Positions 36 to 64,000 of a DNA stretch of 64,000 nt are shown here, one piece after another (within the stretch, counting starts at the first letter, position 1; the number at the start of each line of letters is the position of its first letter). The stretch is from the NCBI RefSeq assembly GCF_018977255.1, contig NW_024704742.1, positions 67,768,001 through 67,832,000 of the forward strand, read 5' to 3'. The notes beneath the pieces are model-generated. The model did not search any database, was not told the DNA's origin, and saw only the letters and a list, made by a program, of their open reading frames with translations. This DNA is from Callorhinchus milii (lineage: Eukaryota). Made by a program: the position numbers and the translations under genes.

Positions 36-3000
36 CTGAAAGCATCACACAAGCTGATTAAAACAACATTATCCTTTCAACAAGGTTCATATGTAAATAA
101 ATATTGGTATAAAACAACCATTAAAGCTTTGTGAGCCACAGATGAACTCACTCCAATTCCCCCACACCTTCCCAATGGGGACATATTTATCCTTCACTCT
201 CCTGCAAATTAAACCTCTCACCAAGTGACTTTTAAATTTGAAATTAAAACAAGTGTGGGGAGGGGGGAGGCATCACTAGAAAACCTTTTTGTTTTCCACT
301 TTAATTCATTACAACAAAATTAAATTTATATAACGTTTCTCACATCAGAAAGATGTCCCAAGGCACTGAACAATTAAGGGTTTGCACACCAGCTGATGGT
401 TGGAATCAAGAGGAATGGAAAGTAGGAGAGGTAGGAGAGTGGCCAAAAGCACAATCAAAGTTTTTTTATTCAATACACTACTTAACCGTCAGTCACCTTG
501 TCTGCTTTGCAGCTCTTAGTCCAGTATGATACATCTGCTTAAGCCAGTACCATTCCAGAGGTCATTCAGCCCATTAAGCCTGTTCTACCAGTTTATCATG
601 ACAGATCTTTCAATCCCATTTTCCTGCCTTTTCCACAATTTCCTGAAGTTCACAAGTTTATAGGTTTAATGCCACTAAAACAAGGGCAACAACCAAAAAG
701 ATCTTTGTTCGACCCACCACTCTCCATTTCCTGCTGACAGATTCATATTTGATTGAACCTTGCTTTTAAATTTAAGTTTACAGCGATTCACACAAAAACT
801 CTGATGGCAGGAATGTTAAGTTAAGGCAAAACCCAACCATAATTCATTTGACCCGGCACCAAAATGTTGACTGTTGCCAGACACGACAGGGAAGGAAAAA
901 GATCACCAAAAATTCCAGCATTTCTAAATAATTCCAAGAGTTAAAAAGAAAATATTTCCTTGAAGTAATAATCCTTGCATTTAATATAGTGCCTTATCAC
1001 ATCATTGACACATCTCAAAGTGCTTCACAGAATATACTGTAAAGTGGAGTGACTTTTGTGGATGGAAAAGTGGCAGCCAATTACGCACAGTAATGTCCCA
1101 CAAACAGTTGTGGATTGAGTGATCAAATCAGTATTTTGAATTTTTATTCATTTTTGAAGTATTATTACCCCTCGGAAGGCGGTCCGCTAATCAACTAACA
1201 TCCAGGTTCCTACTTCCTACTTGGTAAATAGAAGCGTGTGGAGTAAGAAAATATACCAAACTTTCGCCCTGCCCGTGAATCGAACCCAGGTGTGTGTGTC
1301 TGTCTCCTATCCCCTGCCTTTCCCCGTTTGTATCTATGTGCACATCTTTCCCCCCACCTCTGCAATAATATTCATAAACTTCCCCTCCGACAATGAGTGC
1401 TCAATATCTCAGTGGTCCCTTGGAGCACTTTGCACAGGGGAGGACAAAGTGCGTCACTCAACCAGTCAGTTGCTTTATACACCCATGAGGGCTGGTCATC
1501 TTAATTGACTACAAGATTAAATAATCACTTACTCTCCACTGCTTTTTCGATTCCCTTCAACCTGGCATGAGCTGCATTTATATCCAGTGTAAAAGTGTCC
1601 ATCTGTTCCTGATTCAAGCGTTTATAATACATTTCATATTCATGTCTCTTTTGTTCCACCTCCTGCAAATTAAAAAAATATATCAATTGACCATTTGTGT
1701 TAAAACAAAGCACCAAACCACCTATGAGACAACATTATAAAAAGGGATTAAAAGAGAAACTGGGTAAATTGCTGGAAATTAAAAAGATTCAGAATTATTA
1801 GATGTATTGAATAAATCTTTTGGAAGTTATAATAATAATTGTTGCATTTGATATTGTGCCTTGGTACAATACAACAAAATGGTGAGTTTACTTTTTTGTT
1901 TTAAAAAAACGCTATAGTGAACAGAAACAAAAATCAGTATACTTGACAAAATGAAACAAAAGTATTGCAAATAAATCTACCTTGATGTTTCTGAACATAT
2001 AAATCCATTGGTCGAAATATGCATCATAGGTTGTGGACCTTGTGGATTCAGAAGCGGTTTGCTCACCAAATGCAGCTTGATTTATTACTATCAATAATCA
2101 TCCTGGAATTTGATATGATGCCTTCACACAGCTCATTGTTGGCCAGGGGACACCAAGATAAAGTCCCTTCTCTTTACGAACAAGCGATAGGATATTCAAC
2201 AGCCAAGTGGGACTGGGCAGTTGGGACCTAGGTTTAATATCTATTCTGAAGGATGGCACCTCCAACAATGCAACACACCCTAGACTGAGTTCAAAGTCCC
2301 AATGTGGGGCTTGCAAATCACTTACATCCTGATAGACGGCTTTGAATTCTTGCTCCTGAACCTTCAGCACTTCTCTCAGGTGATCAGTGTGAGCAGCCGC
2401 CTGCCTGCGGAGCTGGGTTCTCATCTCAGCTTCCATTACTTCCCGGATTTCTTGTGCCTAAAAATAAAACACAAAACAATTTACATTTACATAGCGCCTT
2501 TCACATTGGGAGAATGTTTCAAATCACTTATAAATGCAGGACGGGGACCCGAGCTGGAGGTGGGGGTCAAGGGGGTGGGGAAGGAAAGGATGAAGAAAAT
2601 CGTGGTCAGAGATAGGTTTTGAGATATAAATAATAATGCTTGTATTCAATATAGCTCCTTATATCGTTGAGATGTCTCAAAAGTGCTTCAAAGAATATAT
2701 TGTTAAGTGAATTGACTGCATAATTTGTGGGTGAAAAGCAGCAGCCAATTGCGCACAGCAGTCTCACAAACAGTCGTGGATTGAGTGAACCAATTTTTTT
2801 TTTTTTTTTTTGCTTTGATATGCCTTGAAGGACGGAATAGAGGGAGCGATCATAATTCAATTAATTTCACCTCACCACAATGTAAAATGCAGACAACGCA
2901 AGATTGACAGGTCAGTAATTATGTTTGAAGTCAACATGTTAAACCCTTCAGCTGACAATATACAATAAGGTAAAGCACTCCTAGTAATTTTTCAAAGAAT

Positions 3001-30806: not shown

Positions 30807-33800
30807 GTCAGTCTGTCTGTTTGCAGTGAACACGAACCGGCAGCGGACACTCCGGGGCCACACAGCGAGAGACAGAGAGAGACAGTCTGAAGGGGGAGAG
30901 ATGGACAATGGTTGACTGAGAGACGAGAGTGTGAGAGACTAACTGTGTGTGAGAGAGGCCCTGTGATGGGGAGAGGGAGAGTGTGAGGAAGTGAGGCTCT
31001 GCCTGTGATGGAGAGTCGGTCTGACACGTTGTGGAGAGAGGAAGTGTGCGTTGAAGAGAGGGAGACCGAGGCTCGACTGTGCAAACTCCCTGTCTGTCAT
31101 CCTCCCCAACCCCTCCCTCCCCAGGCTGCAGGTCATCCAGAGCTCTGCAGCCCGTGTCCTCTCCTGCACCAAACCCCATGACCCTATCACCCCCGTCCTC
31201 GCCCGACTCCATTGGCTTCCCATCACACAGAGGGTACAGTCCAAGATCCTGGTCCTCACCTTCAAAGCCCTCCATGGCCTCGCTCCCCCGTACCACTGCG
31301 ACCTCCTAACCCCCTCCCACCCTGCCCGCTCCCCCCGCTCAGCGGGCTCCGGCCTGCTTCACGTCCCCCGCTTCGCTTGCCCCACCATTGGTGGGCGGGC
31401 CTTCTGCCACTCTGCCGCTGCCCTCTGCAACTCCATCCCGCAGTCCCTCTGTCTCGTCTGCTCCCTCGCCACCTTCAAGACCCATCTCGAGACCCTCCTC
31501 TTCGACTGTGCTTTCGATCACCCTGCTTCCCCCCCTGCCCTCCAGCCTTCCCAATCCCGCCCCCGCAGCTCGGGTCCAAGACACTGACTGTCCAGCGCCT
31601 TGGGACTTCCTCCTGACATGAAAGGCGCTATACAAATGCAATTTTGTTGCTGTTGTCCTGTATGCGATAGACTGTGAGATACTGAGGCATTTTAATAACA
31701 TGCTTTGGAACAACTTGCATTTTATATAAATATTTTATATTTTTGATATAAACTTGCATTTATATAGCTCCCTTCACGCGGGGTAGCCTCTCAGAGCACT
31801 TGACAGTGGTGGGAGTCTGACTCCGAGCCAGGAGAGTGTGCATTTATAAAGCAAATAGCATGTGGACATTTCTCACTGTGTGTGGCCGGCTGGTTCCTAT
31901 GCTACAAATGGCCAACATCCAGGTCATTAGGTCACTTCCTGTGCACTGTGCGGCATGCAGGAAGTGACATCAGCAAAGACCCGATCACCTGGAAGTCGGC
32001 TTTGTTTCCGTGCAAGAACTGGCAGACACGTGGAAACCGAGTCTGACAACCGCACAGTAAAACCAGCTATTAGGTTATAAAGTGGGTTGGGATATATATT
32101 TTATAGATCCAATCATTGTTTTGTGGAGGAGGTCAACTGTTTAACCATTAGTTCTTTAATGAAGTTTGTCATAAGGATAATTGTACTTCTCTCCTTTGTG
32201 GGCACATCAACACCCTTAAGTGCACCTTTTTCTCCTTCGTACTCCCTGTCATTATGTAAAGTGCTTCCAGCCATTAGTCTTATGTGAAAAGTGCTATACA
32301 AGTGCAAGATGCTGTACAATTGCATTGATGGTAAAGGCATCAAGCTTCACCACCGTTAGCACTTCAAGGCACTACCCCATATATTGCTATGTAAATGCAA
32401 GTTGTTGTAATAATTGTGGTTTGTAAAAAAAATTATTGTGACAGATGGATTTGGTAGATAAATGATTATAGGCATAACTGGAAGTATTGTGCTCCACATG
32501 CGCTCATGCAAAGAAAATGCCTTTTTTTCTTTAGGATCCTTGAGGCACGTCCTTTCTCTGGCACACAGAAATGTCCCAAGAGACCCATGTGTTGCACAGC
32601 TCGTCTCCCGGTTTTCCACCTTCAACCTCCGACATATTAAACCACCAGCCGTTTCCACAATAGCCAACCTGACATCTCCTTTGCGGAATAACCTTATCTG
32701 TGGGCATGAATCCTTTGTTCTCAAGAGGTGTGTGTTTAACATCAAAGTCTACTATTCTGAGAGAAAAAGATTGTTTCACTTTGGAGGTTCAGGCAATGAC
32801 TCCCTACCAAAATATTGTGAGCTTATTAAATCATTCAAAACTTTACAGAAGGGGAAGGTATTCAACCCATTATGTCTGTGCTGTTGCTTACTTCCCCATT
32901 GGAGCTATCTGCTCTTTCCCTGTACCTGTAGATTTCAGCTTGGCTCAGCCGGTAGCACTCATGTTGTTGAGTCAGAAGGTTGTGGGTTCAAGCACCACGC
33001 CAGGACTTGGATCACATAGTCTAAGGTGACACCCTAAAGCGGTGTTGCATTGTCAGAGTTGCCATCCTTTGATGAGACATTCAACCATAACTCTCTGCCT
33101 GTTCAGGTGGATGTTAGAGATCCCATAGTGCTACGTGATAAGAGAATGCCATTTCTCCAGGTTGTCCTGGCCAACAATCCCCACAATAAAATTGGTCACT
33201 CACTCCATGGCTATTTGTGGGACATTGCTGTGTACAACCGGCAACTCTTGACTGGCACCTTCTAGCCTGTGCCACCTACTGCGCAAAGCTCATGAGGAGG
33301 TGCTACTTACCCTTGTTTGAACTGGGGTTAAATAGTGGCGATGTAGTGCTGGAAACAATTTGAGGTTATGATTATCGCTCAGTGTTCCCTTAATAGTTCA
33401 GTCTATTTGTCTGGTGTGTAATTGAGCCATATAAACCAGGATGTTCCCAGGGTTAACCCCTGATTTGTACTGAGTTTGCTCATCTCACCCAGGGTGTTTG
33501 TAGGGCTTGCAACTGGTTTCAAAATTTCTGTGTTCAGGAGGGAAAAATCAGTGACTTCCACTTAAAAATGCCTGTATATGGGGTGAGGACAAGGATCTGG
33601 CACGAGCAACACCACTCACTATGAAGGTTCACAAATGAATAATGACCACTTGTGGGAAAGTGCTAGAGGTGTCCATAACACACTGGGAATCTATTCTTCA
33701 ACAAAAAGAAACAAATAGGCAACATGTTCAAGAAAGCGAGGGTGCAGTTGGCATGGGGGGAAAATATCACGCTTAAGAATAGTTGCTTGAGTGTGGCTGA

Positions 33801-36800
33801 TTTTTCTCTTCCCTCCTCCACTCCCCATAACTTATTAATTGTATTGCATTACGTAAGCTCAGTGTATAAGTTTTGTACTGTATTAATGTTGACTCCATTT
33901 TCTTCTATATACAGTGGATCCCCTCCCATTCCACGTTTCCAGCAATCAGTGAGAACACTCACCTATTTCGGTTTGCGTAGAGGAAAGCGGAAAACCGTCA
34001 AAGCTGTTGTGAAGCGGTTCCTGCGACTGCATTGCGGCCTCTGGGTGAGAAGGAAGGTAGGCATTTCCAGTGTTTCATAAGAGAGATTTGGGTGAAACAA
34101 AATCTATGGGCTCATTTGTTCTCTTATTTCCAGAATACCAATCCTACCATCTTCCCATTGTAGCCACATGGTGTTCTTTAAATGAGTCCAGTGTTTGAAC
34201 TCTTCCACCCTTCCCAGTAACGTATTCCATCTGTCAATTACCCATTGTGTAAAGAAATACTTTCTGGTATCAGCCTTAAATTTGACATTCACATCTTTGA
34301 ACGTGTGACCTCTTGTCCTCTTCTACCCTCAACTCCACGACCACCGATGTCCTGACAGACTGCCTGTCCGACATCGAGTCCTGGACGAGAGAGAACTTTC
34401 TTCAGTTCAACGTGCGCAAAACTGAGGCCCTCCTGATTGGCTCACGTCAGCGCCTCCGCACCTCAGGCGCTGACAGCATCAGCATCCAAGGCTGCCCTCT
34501 CCACCTCTCAAAGCCATCAGGAACCTTGGGGTTCTGTTCGACCCTGAGCTGTCCTTTCTCCCTCACATCCGCACCACAACTGGCACCGCCTTCCATCACA
34601 TCCGGAACATCGCCAGACTACAGCACTACCTCACCCCTCACGCCGCTGAAACTCTGGTCCACACCTTTATCACCTCAAGGCTGGACTATGGGAACTCTCT
34701 CCTCGCCGGCCTTCCCGCCACCTCCCTCCACAAGCTGCAGGTCATACAGAGCTCTGCAGCCCATGTACTGTCCCGCACCAGACTTCGCGACCACATCACT
34801 CCCACCCTCGCTCGCCTCCACTGGCTCCCCATCCCCCAGAGGATCGAATTCAACATCCTCATCCTCACCTACAAGGCCATTCACGGCCTTGCTCCCTCCT
34901 ACCTCTCCGACCTACTATCCCCTACCTACCTGCCTGTACCCTCCGTTCCTTTGGCTCCGGTCTGCTCCACATCCCCCGCCCTAACTGCCCTACCATCGGT
35001 GGCCGGGCCTTCAGCCTCTCAGCCCCGAGGCTCTGGAACTCCATCCCCCAGTGCCTTCGCCGCTTCCTCCCTTTCCTCCTTCAAGGCCGGTCTCAAGACC
35101 TTTCTCTTCAACCGTGCCTTCAGCTCCCCTCTCGACTCTCTACCCCCTCCTTGCTCCCTCCCTTCCCTCCCTTCACCATTTTCCCCCCCCTGCTCAGGTC
35201 CCGACCCAACTGTCCAGCGTCTTGGGACGTCCTCCCGACGTGAAAGGCTCTCTATAAATGCAATCTTGTTGTTGTTGTTGTCCTACTGTCTTTGTATACC
35301 AGAAAGCATGATTCTGGTCTTTGGTTCTCTATCCCATTTGGCATATTTTACACACCAAAAAGGTCCCTCCTTGAGACATCACTTTTCAAGGATGAAGACC
35401 CCTTGCTTATATGGTTGTTCTTTGTAGCTTAGTCCCTCTAAGGGATCTCCTCTGCACTGCCTCTATGGCCTGGATAGCTTTATAACATGACGGGGAATGG
35501 AATTAGCATTTGAAGTATTACATAATAACGCGAATACAAAAACGTGCATCATTTTACCTTTAGAAGGCCAAACATAATGAAAGATGTCTGAATCTTTGTA
35601 CTGTTATTTAGGTTCATCTTAAGGAGTTATATGGACAGAATTCCTTGGTACCAAGTCAGTATCCCTTTTCCCCTCCGCTGCAAAGTAGAACGTACGAATT
35701 TCTTCCTTTGATTGCTTCTTTGATTGCACCTGATGCAGACGCATTAGATGGCATCCAACTCCTTGAGTTAACATATGAATGAGACATGGTTACTGCATTT
35801 ATTTTGAGATTAAATTATGAGGATGTGTTTCATAAACTTGGTCTCTATTCACTTGAAGTTAGAAGGTTGAGGGGTGATCTGATTGAGGTTTTTAAGATAA
35901 TAAAGGGATTTGATAGGGTAGATACAGATAAACTATTTCCTCTGGTGGGGGAATCCAGAACGAGGGGCATCATTTTGAAATTAGAGCTAGGCAATTTAGG
36001 AGTGAAATTAGGTGGCAGGTTTTCACCCCAACGGTAGTGGAAATCTGAAACTCTCCCCCAAAAGGCAATGGATGCTGGATCCATTCAAATCTTCAAGACT
36101 AAGGTGTATCCACCTTATTTGTTAGGCCAGGGTAACAAGGGATACAGGGCAAGGGCTGGTAAATGGACTTGAGGTACAGATCAGCCATGACCTTATTGAA
36201 TGGTGGAACAGGCTCGAGGGGCTGAATGGCCTACTCCTGTTTCTATGAGGTCACTACTGTTTCTTCAGAAAGAATTTATTTTACCCTATCATTTTTTCAA
36301 AGATATCAGAAGCTTTGATTTAATCCTATTAGTTTCTTACATTATTACTGTCAATTGTTAATATTATTGTTGTTTAGAGCACTCGCCTTGCAAGCGAGAC
36401 AGAAAACAATGCAAACAAGCAAATTCACCTTCCTGACAAAACCAATTCCAAGTTCAATTCCAGGCAGGGCGAAACCTAAGAATCAGAAGAGCCAGCAAAA
36501 GTCTTGCAAAGAGAGTATGATAGGGTAGACTGGTGAATGGCAAATGATGTTCAATATAGATAATTTAAGGTACTGCATGTAGAAAGTAAAAGCAGAAGCC
36601 ACGTATATTTCCACGTGGAGTCCTGTAGCTCAATGGTTAGAGCACTGGCCTTGCAAGTGAGAGACCTGGGTTCAATTCCAGGCAGAGGGCGAAACCTTGG
36701 GCAAGTTTCCTTACTCCACACAGAGCCTAATAATAATCCCTCCAAAACCAAAAACAATAATAAATTGGTCATTTTCAATCTACGACTGTTTGTGGGACAT

Positions 36801-40061: not shown

Positions 40062-43000
40062 ACAATGCCAAGAGTCCCTTGACAAATGTAGAAGACAACA
40101 ATCCTATAATTCATGCAGCACTCTGTGAACGCGATGCCCAGTGTTTACGGCAACACCAAGTTCCCTATATACAGTTCCCGTCAACACAACACAAAACGCG
40201 AATTAATACAACTATAAAGTGCTCTGGCCTGCCAGATTTGCCGTGGCTTTTTTTTGCCGAAAATTTCAAAGGAAACAAAATCTCACATGCATGGCAAAAA
40301 AAAATCATTTTTTTATAATATATAATAATTATAATGGAAATTAAGACAATCGCAATCTTCCTCAGTCATTTTGTAAAGGCATGAAACCAGTGCATCATCT
40401 CACAAAGAAACCACTTAAATAAATGAGTGAAACCTCACAGAAAATACAACTACAGTCCATTTCACAGATACATCATTCATGTACAGTTACACAAACAGTG
40501 TCTTTTTCTAGCACGGTTCTGCATTACAGTCGGACGACAGTAATCATCACACCAAAAAAATCTTTTCGCATTTTGCATTTGTCGTGTGTGTACAGGTAAA
40601 CAAGCTAGCACAGTGATTTAGTACTGGGAGATAAGGCAGCCCAAGTCAACCCACCTCTCTGACTGCCACAGTGTAAAACAAGTCAACTATAACCATGTTC
40701 TCAACAGCTAATATCATTAATATGGTTTGTAACAAATCTACATAATATTTTTCAATTACTGCCTGTTACATTAACCACCATTTCAGGTGGGTGGGATTGA
40801 AAATGCCAAACTGGCATTGGGTAATTGGACCCAACAACTGGATTTTGCACGATTTGCTGCCAAATTCAACACCCGAATACCGAAAAAAAAACACCACTTG
40901 CTTCCTGATCTTTTACCCTTCATCAGTCCAGAAATGCTCTTCAAAGCAAATTAAAAAATCAATGCCGTCAGCCTCTAAGCAAACACCACACTTTCAACCC
41001 AACCAATCCCCCCGCCCCCACCCCCCCCCCCCCCAACTCCAAACCCCTCCATTTTCAGCTACAACAAAAGCTTCCTTTCCAAATCCTACTGAAGCTACAG
41101 TTTCCAACATGTAGGATTCTTTCCCACACATGTATTTGTAAATCTTGCCCCAATGCAATAGAAACTGCTGACATTTTGTGGCTGTGACATGCTTTAGTAA
41201 TGAAAGTGCAGATGTTTCGTTACTTTACCATGTATGAATTCAAGAGCGTTCCAGGGGATTCGAGTGCTCACTAACCTGAGACACTAACCTGAGTGAGGTG
41301 TGCTATATAAATGCAAGTCGTTGTTGTTGAAGATGATGCAGTTTGCCAATCAGTATCCTGTGGGTTTTGAAATAATGATAATAATTATCATAATCCTTAT
41401 GTTGAATGTAAGGACTATGATTATTATTATCATTATTTCAAAGTGTGCAGTATTTGGCAAATTCTGAAACGCAGCCTTAAATTTCAAAGCTGTTTTTTTG
41501 TAAGTTTCTTTCTTTGAAATAGCTACCAATTAGTCCCACTCCCCCACTCTTACTTTTAGCCCGAGAAATGTTTCCTTTTCAAGTACCTATCCAATTCCCT
41601 TCTGAAAGCTACTATCGAATCTGCTTCCAAGAAAATCTAATTACACTTTCTTTATTTTGGTCTAATCAAAAGCCCACCAAAGTCCTCCAATGTTGTTGTG
41701 AGAGCTTCAGGACATTTTTCTCCTAAAATTAACATCTTGGAGTAGAAATTCCATCCGGGTCTTGACTTATTGTATTTTCTTTGCATTGCTGGGTGCGTAT
41801 TGGCTGCCTTGCACAAACAAAATATCCAGTCACTACACTGTACGGTAAATGCCATGAAGCACTTTAAGACTCCCTCCTGATGTGGAAGGCGCTACATCGA
41901 ATATAAGGTTTATGATTATTATCATTATTTCAAAGTGTGCAGTAACTGGCAAATTCTGAAACGCAGTCTTCAATTTCAAAGCTATTCTTCTGCAAGTTTC
42001 TTTCAAGAACTACGGAAAAACGGCTTCAGGGTTAAGACTTAAAAGTTTTACCTAACAAAATACGTGATCGCTACACTTTGCAGAAAATCCTGTGAAGTGC
42101 TTTGAGATGTCCTCCTGATGTAAGTATTGTTATAAATTCAACAATTTACCAAATTCTGGATGCTTGAAATGCTTAGAAAAGTTAAGTATAACAACAATAA
42201 TAATAATCCTTAATAATAATAGTCCTTGCATTTGATTTAGTGCCTTATCATGTCGTTGAAACATCTTAAAACGCTTCACAGCATATACTGTAAAGTGAAT
42301 TGACTGTATATTTCTGTGCGAAAGGAGGCAGCCAATTGCACACAGCAATATCCCACAAATAAATAATAACTTGCATTTATGTAACACCCTTCGTGTGAGG
42401 TAGTGTCTTGGAGTGCTTAGACTCAGGTTCTCCCCTTAGGTTTGAAAAGACAACTATTAAGAAACTGATTACCTGGTCAGTCTTTTTTGTTGTTGTTGTT
42501 ACAGCACTGTTGTTGTAGCACTCTCCATTGAAACAGCCTATTAGATCTCTAGCATGTGCATTAAGACAGGCAGGTGTACAGAATAGCTAGCCTAGCCGGT
42601 GGTCACCTTTTTGGAACAATTCCCACTCAACTTTATACCGCCCTGAAAAGCAAAGAAACCAGGAGACCGCAAATTCCACCTGCCCTGAGCATTGTCGGAC
42701 TATTGGAAAATTCGCCTGCNAAAAATACACAGTCACTACACTACATTTTGCAGCAAATCACTTTGAGGCATCCTGCCGACGAGGGGAAAAAAGCACTATA
42801 TCAAGTATAAGAATTATTATATTATTATTATAATAAAATCCCACAATTCAGTTTTAATTTGGATGCCGACATGAGAATTGGCAATTGCGGTCTTAAAGAC
42901 AAAACAGGTGCTACTGACGAAGACTAGGTGGAATTTGGTGCCTCTGGGTCTGGGTTACTTTATTTCAGGAGCCTCTCATGTGCTGGGAAAAGCCCTTTAC

Positions 43001-43339
43001 AGAAAGGGGAAAGGCTGTGTGAACATTACAAACACTTTAGCATTGATAAATACAATCCTTTTGCTCACTCATTGCCCCGAAACGCTGTGTTAAATACTGC
43101 GAAGCAGAAAAATGTTATATATATACTGTATATTAAAAAAAGATGATGCCTACAGATAATCTTATACTCATGTCAGTTGGCAGCTGAAAGACATCTGCAG
43201 CACAAGCCACTGCTGGCCTTTTCCCGGTGTTGCTCAGTTGGTGTGAATGTGTGTGTGTGTGTTTTTTTTGGCTCGTAAAGGTAGGGCATGGAACAGGAGG
43301 TCTAAACAAGGTCACTGCAGCCTTGGCGGTCATTCGGCA

Positions 43340-43411
43340 TCACATCGTCTCACTGTTGGACGTCGAGCTACATTTCCTTCTGGGAGGTGGTTTGGGGCGC
43401 CTAAGCTCTGC
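43340..43411 (-). CDS. REEP1: REEP1 last exon, dual frame: GRA* (stop 43401-43403) or [23 protein letters not shown] (stop 43340-43342)
   Basis: tttttacag| acceptor; both frames parallel the human short and long C-termini as I recall them. Confidence 0.85.
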   Translation of the reverse strand, partial: AELRRPKPPPRRKCSSTSNSETM

Positions 43412-45820: not shown

Positions 45821-48800
45821 CCTTGCGTTTGATATGGTGCCTTATCACATCATTGAGAAGTCTCAAAGCTCTTCCTCTGGGCACTAGAGGGACAGTGACA
45901 TTGATTTACGTATAGCTTGGAAATCCCTTGGTAAACACACATTGTCAGAGTCACAACAGAGTTCTTAAGGTTCTTCACTCTTGAGTTTCCGCATGTGTCA
46001 GATAGACATCCATCTGACCCAAAACAAATTCCATAAGGGTTAATATCTAATTCACTCTAAATGTTATAATAGACATGCCTTCAATAGCCAGTTGCGGTAA
46101 TGCATCCCACATCTTGATATGACTCCAGTAAAATACTTTATGATTCCGATTGATAATTGCAACATTCTGGCATCACAAGGAATGTGCACGATAAGGTGCT
46201 ATTTGCAAATTCATCACCAGTGGAAATAATCTGTCACTATTAGAGGTGAACTGAAGAGATTTCTTATTTGGTCAGCTGGGTGGGACATCTGATACACGTG
46301 GAAACCCATCACAACGCTTAGACTAATAGGCATCTGTCTATGGAGTACACACTCATTACGCTTTACAACATATCATGGGAACAGCTTCGAGACGTGAAAG
46401 GTGCTGAGTCAAATGCCATGATTATTATTATTATTAAATAACAATCGGCCATCGCAAACCACAGCCATCCAGTAAATAACACAAGAAGAGACAAAAGGTC
46501 CCATTCTGGGGGAGGGGACAGTGACATACCTCGGACCGTGGTAACTTTTTCCTAAGTGGTTTCTGGGGGCGTTTGATCACGAGCTGCTCAACCTCATCAT
46601 CAGAGTTCTCTACTGCTCTAGCCTTATACTGCTCCTCCTCTGCCCTTTGACCCTGATCAATGTTTACTTCATCGCCTTTAAAGTCCAGTCACCCGTCTGA
46701 GCGGCCAAGAGAAGGAAACAGAGAGCGAATGAATGGGTTACCTTTGTCTCACTGCTCGTGGCTTAAGATGGTCAAAGTAAAGGAAGATGTAGTTATGTCA
46801 TGCTTGTGGGAAACACGGCGGTCAGTTATCGGATTTAACCTGTTGCTCATCCATTTCTGACATAATATTTATACAACAACAACTTGCATGCCCTGCACAC
46901 GGGGTGGCATCTACGAATGCTCTACAGAGCCGAGCCGGGGGAAGAGGTGACTGTAAGCGTGGTCGAAGAGGAAGGTCTAAAAGAGGGGAAGGAGGGGTAA
47001 AGCGGGGGGATTGAGGGAGAGAGGAACAACATTGCAAGCAAGAAGACCTGGGTTCAATTCCCAGGCAGGGCGAAACCTTAGGCAAATTTCACGCCTGTTT
47101 ACCTAGCAGTAAGTAGGAACTCAGTTGTTAGCTGGATCACTTTTCTGGGGGCAATAATCCCTTCAAAACAAATAATAATAATTTGGTCACTCAATCCACG
47201 ACTGTTTGTGGGACGTAATTGGCTGCCACATTCGGCCCATGAAATATACAGCCAATTCACTTTACAGTATATTATGTGAAGCGCTTTGAGACGTCTTGAA
47301 GACGTGATAAGGTGCTATTTCAAATGTAAGGTTTATTATTATTTTGCTGCTCTCGGGAATTCCACTTTGCGCTTTCGAAACAGAGTAGATCAGCGGAAAT
47401 CGCAATCAGATCTTTCCAACACAACAATAAATTGCATTTACAGTATGTAGCGCCTTTCATTTTGGGAATATGTCCCAAGGTGCCAGACAGTTAAGGGTTT
47501 GCACCCAAGCTGGAGGCTGGAGTCGAGAGGCATGGAGGGAAGGAAGGTAGTGGTGGGAGGATTTTCGAAGGCACAGTCAAAGAGCAAGGGCTTGAGATGG
47601 GCCTTGAAGGAGGCAAGGGAGGCGGTGAGGTGGAGGAGCTTTGGAATGAAGTTCCTAGGGTGGGAGTAGAAAGGCTAAAGGTCTGACCAGACAGAGAGTG
47701 GAACGCGGAACAGGCCAGTACCCGCTGAGTGGAGGCAGCAGCCAGGATGGAAGGGTTTTAGGAGGTCACCGAAGTAGGGTGGAGCAAGACTATGGAGAGC
47801 TTTCAAAGTGAGGAGAAGGATTTTAAACACGATCCGCTGGGGAACAGTAAGCCAGTGAAACCAGACGAGAGTGCTCCATGTCCCCCATCCCCTGAACCCT
47901 GCAAGCTAGACACCAGCGAAGAAAAATCACGAAAAGTGCCAGCAAAGGACTGAGCACCAGGATGCGATCGTTTGAGATGCTCAGTCTTTCAGGCTCATGA
48001 GGTTCACTAATTTATTTTTGTTAAAAAAATCCACAGGATCTGATTGCCTGTGTCACACTGTTATTTTCGATGTGTTTCGCCCACAAAATACACAGTCATT
48101 CTTCACTTTACAGTATATTCTGTGATCCACTTTGAGACGTCTCAATGATGTGATAAGGCACTATATCAAATGCAAGGATTATTATTATTATTTTTGGCTT
48201 TAATGTCTGCCAAATGATAAATTTGCTATGCTTGATAGTTAGCACTTTGAGACATCTCGACGCGACAAAGAGTTGCTATATAAAAAATAGCAAGTTCTTT
48301 AGTTACTTGCAAGGCAGCAATTAGCACCCATGAATGAATGCTATTTAAAACCATGTGTGAGGTTAGTGCTCATCCCACAGCAAAACAAATTATTAATTCG
48401 CAGCTACTGAGTGTAAGGAGAGTTATTTCAATGCACAGCCTGGTTTACTTTCTGAAGCGCAGTTTTCATGCCTCTCGGTGGGACTTACGCCAGCGGCGTT
48501 CCCAAGACGTGGACGGAGAATGAAGAGACGAAAGAGAAAGGAGAGAAGGAAAAGGCATTGAAGAGGCTTTGCAATCTCTGCGGTGAAACGGCACACGTAC
48601 AGCGCTTGCGTACAAATGCACTACACTCTTTTGGATGTCTCAAAAATTGTAAGTAAGAAGTATTGTTATATTACATAATATATAACTGTGTTTGCCTGGT
48701 TTAGTTAATTGTACTTTCACTTCTGAGGCAGAATCTTGTGGGTTCAAATCCTACGTCAAAAAATTGAGCTCACTGTCTAAGCTGACACTACAGTTGTCGG

Positions 48801-51800
48801 AGATGCCATCCTGCCGATGAGACATTAAACCAAGGTCCAGTCTGCCTATTCAGGAGGACACTAATGATCCCACGGGACTACTCAAAAAGAGAAGGGAGTT
48901 TCTCCCTTCCCTCTCCAGGAAACAATCCCCCAGATAAAATTGGTCACTCACTTCAGACAATACAATACAAAATTACATTTATATAGCATAATTCACATTG
49001 GGACAACGTCCAAGGTGCTGGGGTTTCATGGCTGTTTGTGGGAAATTAGTCATTCACTTCATGGCTGTATCTGGGACACTGCTATGTGCAAATTATGGCA
49101 ACCACGTTTGTCTACAAAATAGATGTTTACAACAACAAGATTACATTTGTATAGCACCTTTCATGTCGGGAGGATGTCCCAAGGCGCTGGTCAGTGTACA
49201 GCATTTCAGACCCGAGCTGGGGTCAGGGGGGGAGAAGGGAGGGGAGGGGAAGGGGGGTGGCCGATGGCATGGTCGAAGAGGAGGATTTTGAGGCGGGACT
49301 TGAAGGAGGCTAAGGAGGGGGCGAGGCAGAGTGATTGGGGGATGGAATTCCAGAGGTTGGGGGCAGAGTGGCTGAAGGCTCTCCCGCCAATGGTGGGGCG
49401 GGTGGGTCGAGGGACGTGGAGCAGGCCAGAGCCGGCTGAGCGGAGGGAGCGGGCGGGTTGGTAGGGGGTTAGGAGGTCGCAGAGGTAGGATGGGGCGAGG
49501 TCATGGAGGGCTTTGTAGGTGAGGACCAGGATCTTGAACTGGATCCTCTGAAGGACAGGTTGAGAGTGGGGGAGATGGGGTCACGGAGTTTGGTATGGGA
49601 GAGGACACGGGCTGAGGAGTTCTGGAGTTTACAGCAAAACCTATGAAGTGTTTTGCTGTTGTTATGATGGTGTTTTAGGGCATGTAGGCATGTATACAAT
49701 CTAAAGATTATTAATCATAATAATCTTTGTATTTGATATAGTACCTTATCCCATCGTCGAGATGTTTCAAAGTACTTTACAGGAAACAGTACTGTCAAAT
49801 GGATTGATTGTGTATTTTGTGGGCGAAACGTGGCACACAGTTTTGCACACAGCAATGTTCCACAAACGGTTGTGGAGTGAATGACCAATTTTATTTGGGT
49901 GATTTTTGACCAAGGCATTGGGAGAAACTCACTTCTCTTTTCAAATTGTGCCATGGGATCTTTAATGTCCACCTGAACAGGCAGACAGTTCAACGTCTTA
50001 ACCGAAGAACGGCACCTCCGACAATGCAACACCCCCTCAGCACTGCATTGGGGTGTCAACTTAGACTATGTGATTCCAAGTCCCGACGTGGGGCTTGAAC
50101 CCACACCTTCTGATTCAGAGACGAGAGTGCTACCACTGTGCCAGGCTGACACACAAAACATAATGTGTCCCTCGTTTTCTGTCACATGATATTATTATAA
50201 TTATTGGAAACAAAATGACAGCAAGAATTAATCCTCCAACTAACTCCCTGGTTCTTTACTGGATATGAAATAAAGAGACAGATAGGAGTCAGCCATTCAG
50301 TAAACTGTTTGAATGTGCACAATCCAGCATCATTTCCAGCCGCTGCTGAGCTCATTAATATCATTGCGGCAGAGGTTAAACAGAAGACATGCAGCCACTT
50401 CAAACTCAAGCCTAGTGAGGGCTCAAACCTGCGCTTGTCATATCAAAACCAACTAGTCACATCCTCCTTGGAGATAAGTGGGGTCTCCTTGGAGCTGAAC
50501 TGGCTCCAAGGTGACATGCTTGAATGGAATGAATTAATGTAGGAATCGAGCCAGTTCTCTGCGGGATAGAGTGGATAGAGGGATCCAGGGAGAGAGAGCA
50601 CATTCCATACCAACCATCTATCTCTGGGATTTCCATGTGTAGGTGGGATGAATGGAATTATCAGTTTGGTTTGGATACTCTTAAGCATGGGGATGGGTTT
50701 CCGCGTGTGTCAGACACCCGGTTAACCAAAAGAAACCTCAAGCCTGCTTTTACGCTTGTACAGTTAAAAGACTTGGGGGCTTGACGCAATAATTATAATT
50801 ATTCATATCGTCATATGGCGTGACTCTGTTAATGTCTCAGTTGATGTCTGGGGCTTGGAGGCTGCCTGTTTTCCTTTCAGATTGGAGACTTTCTGTGGCA
50901 GTTTCAAATTTGAGTTAAGCTTGCCAACCGGCGCTGAGATGCAGCATGGCTAATAACAGGCACAGATGGTTATGGGCCCAACCATTGTGATAAAGATGGT
51001 GGAGAGGGTAGGTGAGCAGGGCTGGCGGGGGGGGGAGTGTGGGTGGGGGTGTTCGCAGAAGTGATTTGAGACTTAGTTGCAATAGGACAGTGTTGGTCCC
51101 TTCAATGTCATCATTTGTCACTTGGGATATTATTGCATTGCAGCAACAAGGACCAGCAAGGTCAGTAGCTCTAACATTTGGGTACCTCAGCTGGGACTCC
51201 CCGACGTGCTCTGACTCACCTGTTATGATATTGAATATGATGCCGTTTCTAAAGGCTAGAGAGAGAGAAAAAAATAAAGACCATGAAAAAGAACGAGGGT
51301 GGGGGAATAAACAAATGAAAATGAAACAACAGATGTGCAAGTGGTGTCCTCTCTATGAATGTTTAGACGCCTTGGAGGGAGAAATTGCACTTAAGAAATC
51401 CCACTTGAGTCTAGATTTACTCTATTTTTGTAGCATTTCAGAGAGTGAAGAGTTTGGCAAATTGTTGAATTCAATCTTGACTTGTCAGGTCCTGCAGTGA
51501 ACCAAAATTAAGACAGTGGCTTCAAAATTAACTCTGTGTTTCAGAATGTACCATATTTTGCACATTCTGAAATACTAAGAAAACAAAGTAAATTTCAACC
51601 TGGGTGGAAATTCTACCCATTGACGATAATAATATCTACATTGCAACTGGCACTAACCAGATTCAGCAATGCCAAACACACTCAGTATCTACAGGATATT
51701 CGAAAATTTCTATGTAAGTTGGCATGAGATAAAGATGGGTGAGGCAATGGCTCACTTTCCCATTGGGTCAGAAGATTGTGGGATCAAGCCCCCATCCCCA

Positions 51801-54800
51801 CCAACACCACAACAACAACACATTTGAATAGCGCCTTTCACATCGAGAGGACGTCCCAAGATGCTGGAACAGACAGAGTTTCAGACCCGAGCTGGGAGTC
51901 GGGGTCAAGGAGGGTGGAGGGCAGGGGAGAAGCAGTGAGATTGAAAGCACGGTCGAAGAGGAGGGTCTTGAGATGGGTCTTGAAGGTGGCGAGGAAGGAG
52001 GCGAGGCAGAGGGACGTGGGAGTTCCAAAGGGTGGAGGCAGAGTTGCAGAAGGCTTGCCCGCCAATAGTGGAGCGAGTGAGGCGGGGGACGTGAAGCAGA
52101 CCGGAGCCTGCTGAGCAGAGGGAGTGAACAGGGTGGTAGGGGTTAGTAGATCGCAGAGGTAGGGGGGAGCAAGACCATGGAGGGCACCACACCCACATTG
52201 AGACATCGAGTTCACATTCCAGTGCAATGCCGGTGGGGTGGTGGGCGGGTGGCGGGGGTTGCATTGCTGGAGGTGACATCCTTCAGATGCCACCTACAGC
52301 CAAGGTCCTGACTGCCTGTTCTACAGGGAGATGAAAATATCCCACAACACTATAGCAAGATAAAATGGCCCAACCAGTCAGAGTCCTGGCTGACAATCCC
52401 CCAGAGAAAAGAGGAAGGAGTTTTGTCTCCTGGACAACTATCTTCCAAGTTAAATCGATTATTAACCTCATCGCGACTACCACATTAGCCTCCAAAAAAT
52501 CAAGCACTTAACTCCAATGACAGTGTTTTGTGTCTGCTGGGGTACAACACGCTACAAAAAAGCAAGTTCCTTCTTTGCAAACAAGCCACCCAGCAGACTG
52601 TTATTGTTATTTCACTTAATGGCTTCTCCAACACCCCAGCCTTGTCTCTGCCGCCCAGACAGCTCTTGTGAACAACACCAAACTTTATGCATTATAACAA
52701 ATTGTATTTGTGCGGCTTGGAAATGGGCCACTGGGCCCAACATCCCTCACGTCGGGAGGACGTGTCAAGGAATAAAGATTAAGGTCAAAATGGTAGTATT
52801 CCTAAACAACAACAATTTTACATTTATACAGCGCCTTTCATATCAGGAGGCCGTCTCAAAGCACTTTGCACTGTCCCTGAGAGAGACTGAGGGAGGAGGG
52901 AGCTTGAGATGAGAGTTGAGGGGCAGGAGTTGGGAGGGGAAAGATGACCAAAAGCTCAGTCAAAGAGGTCGCTCCTGAGACAGAGAAAAGAGGAAGGAGT
53001 TTTGTCTTCTGGCCAACTATCTTCTGGGTTAAATAAGTCATTCACCTCACTGGTGCCGACAGGACCTTGCTTTATGTTCAAAATGGCTGCCGCCTGTGGT
53101 TGCAGTATACGCAGCTGTGTGACAATGATTACTTGTAAGGTTCCGGTTAAAATAAAATTGCAAATTCTTTCTTCTTTTCTTCAAGCCTGGAATCTGACTT
53201 GCTCTCTGTGGAGCTGGACATCCCGAAGTATTCTTTGCTATCTCGCCCCCTCCTTCCTCCACGTGTCAGTCAAATGTCACATCAGTCAGGCTGCGTACTC
53301 CAGAATTTCCACCTTGTCCTAGTGTGTAAGATCACTGGACCCAAAATTCCACCTAGCCTTAGCCTATAAGATCACCAGTCTCAAAATTCCAACTAGTCTT
53401 AGCCGGTAGGATTACTGTACCCGAAATTCCACCTAGTCTTAGCCTGCACACCCATTGAAGAATTGAAAACAATTTACCCGCAATTTTCTTGGTACTTTTA
53501 ATATCAAAATGTTAATGATGTGTCAGATAACTGAGCTAAGGGTGGGCAGTTCCGGACCTCATTTGTGTGTCCCCGTGAAGGTTTCCAAGCTTACCCGAGT
53601 TGTCGATGGTCTCTGTGATGTGGCGGGGGGCACTCTGCGTGGGAGCGTGGGCACTGCCTATCCTTGTCGTGGGGCCGTCTTCACCTCGGATTGAGGTCAG
53701 GTCCTGCATGCTGAAGCTCCTCAGCCTCTCCGACAGAGCCCCCTGTCCCTGCAACACAGCAAAACAGCTTACCTTTACCACAGAGTGCATTAACCATGGC
53801 CCTTAATAGAAGGGACTATTTATAGCAGGGTTGTCCAACCTTTTAGCTGCTGAGGGCCGAATGCCTGATTTGAGAAATGTCCATGGGCCTCATAGACAAT
53901 ATTTGATCCTGATTGACCGGTCTCATTGCTGGGCAACGCCTGAGCCCCCAGTGACCATCTCCTGATTGGCTCGGTGGCCCCCCACGAGCCACCTGTTGGA
54001 TTTATACAGTGTCCTGAGAAAAAGGTGGGGTGTCTGTCTGTCTGACTGTCTGTCAGTAACAGACAGCTCTGTGCAGGAGGCTATCACAGCAAAGATCCTC
54101 TGCCTCTCAAAACACTGGTTTCAAAATCACTGCGGGTCATGCCGGCTCCCAAACACTCTCCCACACATATGGTGGGGTCCAACGTTGTTTTATTCCTAAA
54201 CTCATTTGCCGACAATAATTAAGAGACTGTCCAGATATTCTGAGTCCTTTTAAACCTGTCCTGAATAAGAGGTTTGGGACTGAATGGTCAGAGCACCATT
54301 AATTGTCACCGGAGTTAAATATCACAGCATTTGCGATCCGTGATGTGTTAATTAAACAATATCTTGGGATACAATATATAGTTTGGGACATGTCATGTGC
54401 ATGTGACTGCCAGGATGGTGGAAGGCAAATTGAATGAACCTTGGTCTTCCTTCACATAGCGATTCCTATGTTCTTATGTTCTAATTATCACCAGCGTTGT
54501 CTGTCATAGCATTGTTAATTGTCATCAGTGTTAAGTATAACAGCATCGCAACCGTGACTGAACACTTCTCCCTCACCCTCTCTCCATCCCCCCCACCCCT
54601 CCAGTCACCCTCTGCCATCAAACTCATTGCTGCCCCCCTCCCTCCACCATGTCCCCTCTCCCCATGGACTTCAGAAAAATGCTTTTCACAGCCAATTTGG
54701 TCACCATTTTTTTAAAGCAGCTTTTTATTTTACCGCATTATTTATAATGTTACTTTTACCAAAATGATTTTTGAGGCCATTATTAGGCAAAGTTGTTCGA

Positions 54801-57800: not shown

Positions 57801-60800
57801 ATCGTCTTATTAACAGTCCCATTTGCACCAATGACTGTAGGAACTATGTTTAATATATTTCTTAATCTGCTCTAGTTCCTTATTTCTTATGTTCTAATCA
57901 CTTTTTTATTATATTATTATTATCTCCTCTAGGTGTATCCAGAAAAAATTTACAGAATTGGAGAATGTTACAGCACCAAAAGAGGTTGTCAGACCCATCA
58001 AATCTATCAAATACTAGTGCTTTTTTCCATATGACCCACTTAGTCTAATTCCTCACAAAATTCCCTTGCAGTTCCCAACCCCAGCTCGCCAACCCAGCAC
58101 TGTGAAGCAATTTGAGATCTCCTAATGTGCAAGGCGCTGTATCAATGTAAATTGTGTTGCATCAACCGCCAATGGTCTCTTGTCTTCTCTGACGCCATTT
58201 TGGGGTTAACATCTTTAATTTGTGGTATCTCTTAATAAGCAATATACAGCGAGTTGTTCGGATCTGGAATGCATTGCCTGAAAGGGTGGTGCGAGCTGAC
58301 TCGATAACAACTTTCAAGAGAGAAGTCAATAGATATTTGGGGAGGGCAAGTTTGCAGGGATATGGGGAGAGAACGGGGGAGTGGGATTAATATGGATAGC
58401 TCTTCCAAAGAGCCGGCACAGACACGTTGGGCCGAATGGCCTCCTTCTGTGCTGTGATTCTGTGCTATGATTCTATGATTCAATCCAGTAGAAATTCCCG
58501 TCGACCAGCAGGAACTAAGCTCCAAAATGCAGATGGCGCCAGAGTGGAGATCCCGTGAGTTGGGGGCTGACGTGACCTTTGGTTACTGGAAGGAATCCTA
58601 ATTTGCATAACTTGTAATTTTTTATTAAGAAATAGCCCGAAATTAGACCCGTGGTTTGTTTCAGATACAAAAGGGCAAAGATGCTGAGCAAGTTATCAGG
58701 TGCAAGGATTATTATTATTTGTTAAAATGCAAGACATCCTGATACAAAGTGTGGGGGGTTGGTCTATAGTAGTGTTAGTAGCAGTACATTTGGGATTACC
58801 TGCCCCTCTGTACTCTCTTCAGACAGGGTTACGTTGAGAAAGGGAGACACCTAGTATAGAAAAAGGGGTTATGAAATCCTGTGAAAGCCTGCTGTTCGCA
58901 ATACTGTACGTTCTTTTATGTGACATGATCACAACACAGAGACCTGAAATTTCCCCCGCTCTTAGCCTTACAGCCATCGTTTTCAAATCTAAGGTCAGGC
59001 AGAACATTAAGAAAAATCTTCAATTTGTGCTCAAATCAGAAGCTAGGTTTCTGCAGTTTTCTTACAAATAATTGAGCCAGTCTGGAGGGGGAGGAAAGGA
59101 GGGAGGGAGGAGGGGTTTAACAGATGGTGCTATCGTAGGGAAATTCCTTTATAAAAGTGGGGAACCAATAAATTGGTGGAAGCGTTCCATTCATCGTCAC
59201 GGATATCTGTGGATTGATGAGCTACTGTGAAAATAATGACCAGGTCTTCAATAATAATACTTGCATTTAATATGGCGGCTTATCATGTCGTTGAGTCATC
59301 TCAAAGCGCTCCACAGAATATGCTGTAAAGTGAATTGACTGTATAATTAGTGAGCGAAACGCAGCCGCCAATTGCGCACAGTAGTGTCCCACAAACAGTC
59401 ATGGATTGAGTGACCAAATCATTATTATTATTGAAGAGACTATTATTGTGGATTCAAGACCCACATCTGGACTTGGAATCACCAGATGACACTGCAATGC
59501 AGTGCTGGGCGTCTGTTACATTGTGGGAGATGCTGTACTTCGGATGAGATGTTAAATCGAGGTTCCATCTGCCTGTTTAGGCAGACATAAAACATCCCAT
59601 TGCACTATTTGAAAAGTGAAGGGAATTTCTCTCTCCTGATGTCCTGACCAACAAATCCCCCAAATAAAATTGGTCACTTGTTTCATGGCTGTTTTGTAGG
59701 ACATTGCTGTGCTCAATTGTGCTGCTGCATTGGCCTACAAATACACAGTCACTCCATTTCACTGTAAATCTTGTGAACCGCTTTGAGACGTCCTTCCGAC
59801 GTGATAAGGTGCTACACAAATGCAAAGATTATTATTACTCTTATTCTGCCATGTTTGCAGCAGAGTCAGACTGTGGGCTGGGGTCCAGCAGGAAGGCAAG
59901 GCTGGCAATCGGTGACCGTTACCTTGGCAGCGGCTGTCACCGCGGCGCTGGCTGCCACATTCAATCCCCGTCTCCCAAACTGCACCACCGCTTCATAGCT
60001 ACGATCTTTGGCTTGGCTCAGGTACTCGTCAATCTCCTGCAAGACAGGAAATAAAGGGGAGCAGGTCAGGTGGATATTTTATAATCCTCACACTGGGTAT
60101 CACACCTGGAACACGTAGAGTTCCTGTAGAGTTTTGATTAGAGCACTCGCCTCGATTCCCAGGCAGGGCGAAACTTCAGGCAAGTTTCCTTACTCCACAA
60201 GCCTCTGTTTCCCCAGCAATAATTAGCAACCCGGTTGTTCGTCGATTAGCAGAACGCTTTCCAGGAGTAGTAAACCCTTAAAAAAAGCTCAATCCACGAC
60301 TGTTTGTAGGACACTGTTGTGCGTAATTGGCTGCCGGGTTTCACCCACAAAATACACAGTCAATTCACTTTACAGTATATTCTGTGAAGCGCTTTGAAAT
60401 GTCTCAATGGCATGATGAGGAGCTATATCAAATGCAAGGATCATTATTATGCAGAAATGTCTCAACATGCTTACTAATGATAATAGTAATAACTATTTTT
60501 ATTTCTGGCATTTAACTCTGTTTTAAGTACTAAGAGTACTCTTCTTATATATAGAAACAATTTTCAATTTCATGACTTTATGCTCCATTCCATGACGTTC
60601 ATCTGTTCCAAAATTAACAATAATAACAAGAATAATACTCATACTTGAGACAGTGCCTATAACACTCAACCATCTCAAGTATTTTGCACGTAATTTCTGT
60701 ATATTTGTGTAAATATGTAGACAATATAGTGACTGTATATTTGTAGGTAAACCCGGCAGCCACTTGGCACACCGCAATGTCCCACTAACTGCCAAGTAGT

Positions 60801-63905: not shown

Positions 63906-64000
63906 AAGCACCTTAGCACCAAGTAAAGGGGAGACATATTGAAGAAAACAAAAATACAACCATGAACAGCAATGGAAATATAGTGCTCGCAATGTCCTTT

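What the first reader, a model, noticed from the sequence alone, without database searches (positions are those of the whole stretch)
43340..43411. Dual-reading-frame last exon of REEP1, apparently conserved to human
Seen: spliced directly from the phase-1 donor at 53595 the exon reads G-R-A-stop (11 nt). Entered from the phase-0 donor at 46530 it reads [27 protein letters not shown] (72 nt). From memory, human REEP1 ends in GTA-stop (short form) or APPRILRSRFRKKSTSSSATETT (long form) from the same exon. Inference: the frame switch is ancient in jawed vertebrates, so bases just after the short-form stop, usually treated as 3' UTR in this spastic paraplegia gene (SPG31), are under coding constraint.
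Basis: partly seen in the sequence, partly recalled or inferred. Interest (0 to 1): 0.7.

Follow-up and report, generated by a model that had tools for sequence, protein, structure and literature searches.

The report
REEP1's ancient short and long tails
The elephant shark's REEP1 gene makes a short or a long protein by skipping or keeping one exon that shifts the reading frame of the last exon, an arrangement shared from sharks to humans, so several human paraplegia variants described as non-coding also sit inside the long protein's coding sequence.

Summary
Confirmed. The window holds Callorhinchus milii REEP1. Its last exon (43411, minus strand) reads G-R-A-stop from phase-1 donors and a 23-residue tail from the phase-0 donor at 46530. 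Both joins occur in assembled contigs of presumed RNA runs, and both forms are already in RefSeq. Database proteins show the long tail in sharks, rays, ray-finned fishes, lungfish, amphibians and amniotes including human. Short and long ends fit one DNA in 21 of 22 pairs tested. The short stop lies at exon nt 9-11 in 11 pairs and at nt 18-20 in 10. Only 11-20 nt are read twice, so this is an alternative C-terminal-length switch, a known class, not a long dual-coding exon. REEP2 has a similar tail, so the long form is probably ancestral. Mapped onto the long form, human '3'UTR' variants become R270 missense (+14), silent S279 (+43) and E282K (+50), and a stop-loss allele becomes R265G. Reviews still call the first three miRNA-site variants. 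No earlier scan note on REEP1 was found.

The parts
63497..63617 (-). REEP1 exon 4 (exons 1-3 were not found in the window; they would lie beyond position 64000)
   Evidence: tblastn of RefSeq X1; AG/GT ends
59923..60036 (-). REEP1 exon 5, phase 0 exit
58800..58850 (-). 51-nt in-frame exon between exons 5 and 6, present in the RefSeq models and absent from the UniRef model
53595..53748 (-). Exon 6 (154 nt, carries the RSFSMQDL motif), phase-1 donor at 53595
   Evidence: 100% identity to C. milii REEP1; joints in contigs
51220..51255 (-).
   Evidence: scan; RefSeq X1/X3/X4; both joints in runs X2, X3
46530..46675 (-). 146-nt (3n+2) cassette exon, the frame switch; weak AAG acceptor, phase-0 donor
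   Evidence: joints 51220->46675 and 46530->43411 in contigs
46676..46696 (-). 21-nt extension from a stronger upstream CAG acceptor; brings an in-frame TGA (RefSeq X4 ends ...D-G); predicted NMD target
   Evidence: use not seen among the joints printed; NMD is inference
43340..43411 (-). Coding part of the last exon in the long frame: 23 residues plus TGA
43401..43411 (-). The 11 nt read in both frames; short-form TAG at 43403-43401
   Evidence: RefSeq X3/X5 end in GRA; X4 contig
43407..43411 (-). Possible tandem acceptor 4 nt downstream (GCAG|AG) that would put the short splice into the long frame
   Evidence: sequence; the matching form is annotated in Chiloscyllium, Stegostoma and Mobula; not seen used in C. 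milii
42959..42964 (-). First AATAAA downstream of the stop; candidate polyA signal, untested
33679..34080 (+). Neighbour: frame holding a piece of a ribosomal L35 gene (MRPL35-like)
   Evidence: weak Pfam PF01632 match, E 0.008, below the cut-off; human adjacency recalled
2098..2457 (-). Neighbour: frame holding a mitofilin (IMMT) exon
   Evidence: Pfam PF09731, E 1.5e-9; human adjacency recalled

Best explanation
REEP1 uses a non-triplet cassette exon placed just before its terminal exon as a C-terminal length switch. With the 146-nt exon included, the terminal exon is entered in phase 0 and adds an acidic stretch plus a basic, Ser/Thr-rich 23-residue end (long form, 291 aa in the RefSeq model here, 284 aa in mammals). 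With it skipped, the exon is entered in phase 1 and translation stops after 3 codons (6 in elasmobranchs and two amphibians). That stop is in the last exon, so the message should escape nonsense-mediated decay and give a stable protein lacking about 70-80 tail residues. Shown: splice joins in this species, annotated proteins of both kinds across jawed vertebrates, one DNA fitting both frames. Inferred: NMD escape; that the long form is ancestral and the short form arose in REEP1 before chimaeras and bony fishes split; that the switch is regulated; that the tail tunes microtubule or phospho-dependent partner binding of this ER-shaping protein (conserved R-x-x-S at tail positions 11-14).
For: Joints in contigs. 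RefSeq X1 versus X3/X5. 21 of 22 short/long pairs fit one DNA sequence, against 51 of 258 mismatched pairings. Tail conservation: R4 92/92, R11 88/92, S14 78/92, E21 80/92 distinct tails. Shark, eel and cattle REEP2-like proteins end in an alignable E|...basic...S/T-E-S-A tail, and the Glu before the junction is invariant in 11 of 11 rows; REEP1/REEP2 are 2R sisters (PMC3411107). Human c.478delA is reported with 62 new residues (PMC2492855), which ends at codon 222, exactly the long-frame stop. The C-terminal microtubule-binding region of REEP1 is reported but unmapped (PMC9437294).
Against: No raw reads, no tissue ratios and no protein-level evidence for either form were obtained. The short join rests on one contig, and no DNA run was laid as control. 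Most cross-species proteins are automated models that may share annotation bias. Relatives' DNA was inferred from peptides, not read. The stop position moved in elasmobranchs and amphibians, and one unnamed protein (P0540) runs 20 residues in the short frame. Early stops arise easily in this frame. The fit test can give false parses (one for Erpetoichthys). Intron phases of the paralogs were not seen.
Confidence: 0.72

Rival explanations
1. Only the long form is selected; the short form is tolerated exon skipping that stops early because Arg/Lys codons after T make stops in the shifted frame.
For: Chance of a stop within 7 codons is 13-54%. The stop position differs in 10 of 21 pairs and is absent from the first 7 codons in P0540. 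The cassette acceptor is weak (8 of 18 pyrimidines).
Against: A stop at nt 9-11 needs T at a four-fold site (4-9% by chance), yet it is implied in chimaera, reedfish, sturgeon, seadragon, lungfish, turtle, lizard, platypus, bats and marmot. The tripeptide GTA is the same from lungfish to primates. The 7-exon short transcript was the clinical reference.
Confidence: 0.15
2. The first 11-20 nt and the +43/+50 region are conserved for RNA-level reasons (splice enhancers next to the acceptor, or the predicted miR-140 site), and the frame relation is incidental.
For: Reviews describe a highly conserved miRNA site. The bases lie next to a splice acceptor.
Against: The miRNA evidence is listed as in silico only (PMC5413909). 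Across vertebrates the tail keeps residue classes and length while many residues change, which fits selection on protein.
Confidence: 0.08
3. The short form is the main functional protein and the long tail is a retained ancestral minor form with little present role in mammals.
For: In the papers I read, disease alleles cluster in the N-terminal part and are described on the short transcript. No paper in my 10 searches tests the long tail.
Against: The tail is nearly invariant among mammals, which needs purifying selection. Recent clinical papers use the 9-exon transcript.
Confidence: 0.05

Closest known systems
RefSeq REEP1 isoforms: C. milii XP_042199402.1 (X1, long) and XP_042199406.1 / XP_042199412.1 (X3/X5, short); human NM_001371279.1 (9 exons) and NM_022912 (7 exons)
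   Same: Same exons and the same two readings of the last exon.
   Different: The annotation does not state the conservation or its bearing on variants; I found no paper on it in 10 searches.
Non-triplet alternative C-terminal-length isoforms (PMC13247117, Nat Commun 2026; passages and supplement search seen)
   Same: Frame-shifting cassette, stop soon after the shift, NMD-insensitive, long tail with short UTR versus short tail with long UTR.
   Different: That work covers worm and a human cell line; REEP1 occurs neither in its text nor in its 9 supplementary files. Conservation across all jawed vertebrates is deeper than the passages I saw discuss.
Human dual-coding regions, e.g. TCF7L2 and MADD last exons (PMC13160074; passages and supplement search seen)
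   Same: A penultimate exon decides the frame of the last exon.
   Different: Catalogued regions are 20 nt or longer; the human REEP1 overlap is 11 nt, and REEP1 is absent from its text and 8 supplementary files.
REEP2 (2R sister of REEP1)
   Same: Alignable acidic stretch and basic terminal segment after a Glu.
   Different: No short frame-shifted form among the few REEP2 proteins held; this was not a systematic search.

Membership tests
REEP1 (REEP1-4 subfamily) | TB2/DP1/HVA22 domain | tested here: met
   PF03134, E 1e-29, on the RefSeq models that match the window's exons
REEP1 (REEP1-4 subfamily) | Closest named relatives are REEP1, not REEP2-4 | tested here: met
   top two hits are 100% identical C. 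milii proteins, one named REEP1; nearly all other named hits are REEP1 or REEP1-like (one is labelled REEP2-like, a few carry no paralog number). No tree was built.
REEP1 (REEP1-4 subfamily) | Synteny with IMMT and MRPL35 | tested here: inconclusive
   Mitofilin piece found; L35 piece below cut-off; the human gene order is recalled
Non-triplet alternative C-terminal-length isoform | Alternative segment not a multiple of three | tested here: met
   146 nt; human equivalent 152 nt, derived from c.595, a 36-nt microexon and c.784
Non-triplet alternative C-terminal-length isoform | Both splice forms exist as transcripts | tested here: met
   long join in 2 of 4 runs, short join in 1 of 4; contigs, RNA status guessed
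Non-triplet alternative C-terminal-length isoform | Both forms escape NMD | not testable with these tools
   Inferred from both stops lying in the terminal exon
Dual-coding exon (60 nt threshold of PMC13247117; 20 nt minimum in PMC13160074) | Length read in two frames reaches the threshold | tested here: not met
   11 nt here and in human; 20 nt including the stop in elasmobranchs and two amphibians
Conserved miRNA target site in the 3'UTR | Seed match conserved independently of coding constraint | not tested
   No DNA of related species was available

The most novel reading that the evidence does not exclude
The long REEP1 is the ancestral, REEP2-like protein and a major neuronal or muscle form, and the 201-residue protein on which SPG31 was defined is a regulated truncation. 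The 'conserved miRNA site' is conserved because it codes. The +50 (E282K), +14 (R270) and stop-loss (R265G) alleles act partly through the long tail, and exon-6 single-base deletions make NMD-escaping chimeras carrying that tail. Exons 7-8, not screened in the 7-exon era, would then hold missed disease alleles.
Probability: 0.2. Interest if true: 0.72.

Novelty: new member of a known kind. Interest (0 to 1): 0.43.

Why it matters
REEP1 is cited as a standard example of disease from a miRNA-site variant (PMC9295495; PMC7617937). The 2025 review lists NM_001371279.1:c.808C>T as a 3'UTR variant, although c.808 lies inside that transcript's coding sequence by my arithmetic. A tail conserved from chimaera to human offers a simpler reason for the conservation and a direct test for each allele. 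It predicts that +43 is silent, in line with its frequency in controls, and that +50 and the stop-loss allele change highly conserved residues. It also points to an isoform whose function I found tested in none of the papers I could read.

Tried and rejected
No whole genome was held for this window, so nothing outside it could be read. DNA-level two-frame dN/dS was not possible: no vertebrate DNA collection was available, so codons were inferred from peptide pairs. The idea that the gene is REEP2 (its tail resembles REEP2) was rejected. The CAG acceptor at 46696 was rejected as the long-form acceptor (stop in frame; contigs use 46675). My first conservation count (R4 72/72) was circular because the pattern required that Arg; it was replaced by a profile search, whose 8 seeds also carry the Arg, so some bias remains. 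Phyllopteryx failed the fit test because I cut the tail one residue short; corrected; the 51/258 control included that mis-cut tail. Erpetoichthys X2 fits no parse and probably uses another exon. One pair is cross-species (two turtles) and the sturgeon pair may be two paralogs. No RNA holder was listed as RNA on record. Literature searches for the long-form variant names and for a described long isoform found only PMC7617937. Beetz 2008, Zuchner 2006 and Bock 2018 were not read (the first is not held; the other two were seen only as citations). PMC12786278 (2025, REEP1 exon-5 deletion) was seen only as a listing and may discuss isoforms. ClinVar, gnomAD and GTEx were not available. No fold or complex prediction was run, since the tail is short and low in complexity.

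Full report
IDENTITY. Exon 6 of the window's gene matches two Callorhinchus milii proteins at 100% (59 hits of 483 candidates); one is named REEP1, and nearly all other named hits are REEP1 or REEP1-like. The RefSeq models carry PF03134, and the window also holds a mitofilin exon and a weak ribosomal L35 piece; that these flank REEP1 in human is recalled. No genome beyond the window was held.

OBSERVATION. On the minus strand the acceptor at 43411 and the donors at 46530 and 53595 are canonical. From phase 0 the exon gives 23 residues and TGA (72 nt); from phase 1 it gives G-R-A-TAG (11 nt). The microexon keeps the frame; only the cassette changes it. The cassette's open acceptor is weak (8 of 18 pyrimidines). 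A stronger CAG 21 nt upstream gives a stop after two codons and corresponds to RefSeq X4.

TRANSCRIPTS. I laid 4 of the 14 listed runs, all assembled contigs whose RNA status is the tool's guess. The joint 46530->43411 is in X1 and X2 (two studies). The joints 53595->51255 and 51220->46675 are in X2 and X3. One X4 contig runs from 43000-43410 straight into 53594-53750, the direct short join (piece table; 744 joints were not printed). Contigs give presence, not ratios, and no DNA run was laid as control. RefSeq already has X1 (291 aa, long) and X3/X5 (ending GRA) for this species.

CONSERVATION. Three homolog searches, one representative search and three cluster look-ups gave 540 proteins, 408 of them REEP1-like by pattern. 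A profile from 8 named tails found the long tail in 254, with 92 distinct sequences: Arg4 in 92, Arg11 in 88, Ser14 in 78, Glu21 in 80 (Asp 4, Gly 1, unaligned 7). Position 9 (human R270) is Arg in only 58, with Cys in 2 and His in 4. The seeds all carry Arg4, so that count is somewhat biased. The tail is present in sharks, rays, bichirs, sturgeons, gar, bowfin, teleosts, lungfish, frogs, salamanders, caecilians, turtles, squamates, crocodilians, birds, monotremes, marsupials and placentals. Most of these are automated models.

TWO FRAMES. For 22 short/long pairs I asked whether one DNA can encode both ends; 21 fit, against 51 of 258 mismatched pairings. The stop falls at exon nt 9-11 (TAG, using the AG of Arg4) in 11 pairs: chimaera, reedfish, sturgeon, seadragon, lungfish, turtle, lizard, platypus, two bats and marmot. 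It falls at nt 18-20 in 10 pairs: 8 elasmobranchs, a frog and a salamander. One unnamed protein (P0540) runs 20 residues in the short frame. The simplest history is an ancestral stop at nt 9-11, lost twice (inference; no tree built). Random synonymous recoding puts a stop exactly there in 4-9% of trials and within 7 codons in 13-54%. So a short end is cheap, but keeping the same position, and GTA from lungfish to primates, suggests selection on the short form or on the RNA next to the acceptor. In three elasmobranch genera an acceptor 4 nt downstream is annotated, which puts the short splice into the long frame.

WHICH FORM IS OLDER. Shark, eel and cattle REEP2-like proteins, and two proteins I take to be REEP4 and REEP3 by recalled likeness (one search gave no paralog name), end in an alignable basic segment after a Glu that is invariant in 11 of 11 rows. 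REEP1 and REEP2 are 2R sisters (PMC3411107, passages). I infer that the long form is the family's original C-terminus and the short form a REEP1 derivative. Paralog intron phases were not seen.

HUMAN VARIANTS. Exon 6 ends at c.595 in the 9-exon NM_001371279.1 (PMC12047270, passages) and the short CDS at c.606, so the human short form also takes 11 nt. PMC5413909 (passages) lists +14C>T, +43G>T and +50G>A as in-silico miRNA-site variants. PMC7617937 (passages) writes a REEP1 3'UTR allele as c.808C>T. Taking it as +14C>T, the only C>T of the three, the last exon starts at c.784, in phase 0 at codon 262, which matches the 284-aa mammalian proteins. Then +14 is the first base of R270 (missense, probably Cys since some primates have His there; inference), +43 is the third base of S279 (silent) and +50 is E282K. 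An independent check: c.478delA is reported with 62 new residues (PMC2492855, whole text), ending at codon 222, the long-frame stop; two other frameshifts in that table confirm the counting convention. A stop-loss allele, c.524A>G p.*175Trp on NM_001164731.1 (PMC4082881, passages), shows that the stop is TAG; its middle base is the first base of Arg4, so it reads R265G in the long form (my arithmetic). Against over-reading: +43 has an allele frequency of 0.115% in ExAC Europeans and was in 2 of 1000 controls (PMC6119489, passages), and R270 tolerates Cys and His in other species. ClinVar probably already prints these protein changes (recalled, unchecked).

MECHANISM. Skipping the cassette truncates the cytoplasmic tail by about 70-80 residues without creating an upstream stop, so both messages should be stable (inference). 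The lost part is an acidic stretch followed by a basic Ser/Thr-rich end with a conserved R-x-x-S. REEP1's C-terminus binds microtubules at an unmapped site (PMC9437294, passages), and 14-3-3 binds REEP1 at Ser152 and Ser192. The likeliest role of the switch is to tune such binding by tissue; this is not shown.

COMPARISON AND NOVELTY. The class is known: PMC13247117 calls it alternative C-terminal length and reserves 'dual coding' for 60 nt or more; PMC13160074 lists 1296 human genes with dual-coding regions of 20 nt or more. REEP1 is in neither text nor the supplements searched. The isoforms are annotated. The depth of conservation, the shifting stop and the re-reading of the variants were not found in 10 literature searches, which miss most subscription journals, including the original SPG31 papers. 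Other papers seen: PMC7325443 (parts 1-2 of 3), PMC6878944 (whole text), PMC9959426, PMC7173978 and PMC9295495 (passages).

VERDICT. Real, largely annotated, of a known kind, with a useful and testable consequence for SPG31 genetics. Interest 0.43.

Noticed in passing
window 51220-51255 (-): The 36-nt microexon keeps its length and phase from sharks to mammals, but its peptide is hydrophobic without Cys in cartilaginous fishes and Cys-rich in bony vertebrates; possibly a lipidation or metal site in the latter (inference).
   Followed up: partly
window 46676-46696 (-): A stronger upstream acceptor of the cassette brings an early stop (RefSeq X4), a possible poison route for a third outcome.
   Followed up: partly
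window 43407-43411 (-): A tandem acceptor 4 nt downstream would give a short splice with the long tail; annotated in Chiloscyllium, Stegostoma and Mobula, not seen used here.
   Followed up: partly
window 58800-58850 (-): A 51-nt optional exon between exons 5 and 6, with counterparts in a shark, gar, alligator and opossum.
   Followed up: no
P0418, P0420, P0436, P0461, P0464, P0536: Amphibian REEP1 models have a further, different C-terminus ending in KKPQ, probably a separate terminal exon.
   Followed up: no
P0516, P0524: Bird and elephant-shrew models join exon 5 directly to the last exon in the long frame (162 aa), a further route to the tail.
   Followed up: no
window 14000-52300, both strands: Many decayed fragments that look like non-LTR retroelement reverse-transcriptase ends, and a long remnant near 18700-20900 (label recalled, not searched). 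Intronic repeats near 47000-48400 draw very high contig depth.
   Followed up: no
window 42720: A single N in the region downstream of the stop.
   Followed up: no
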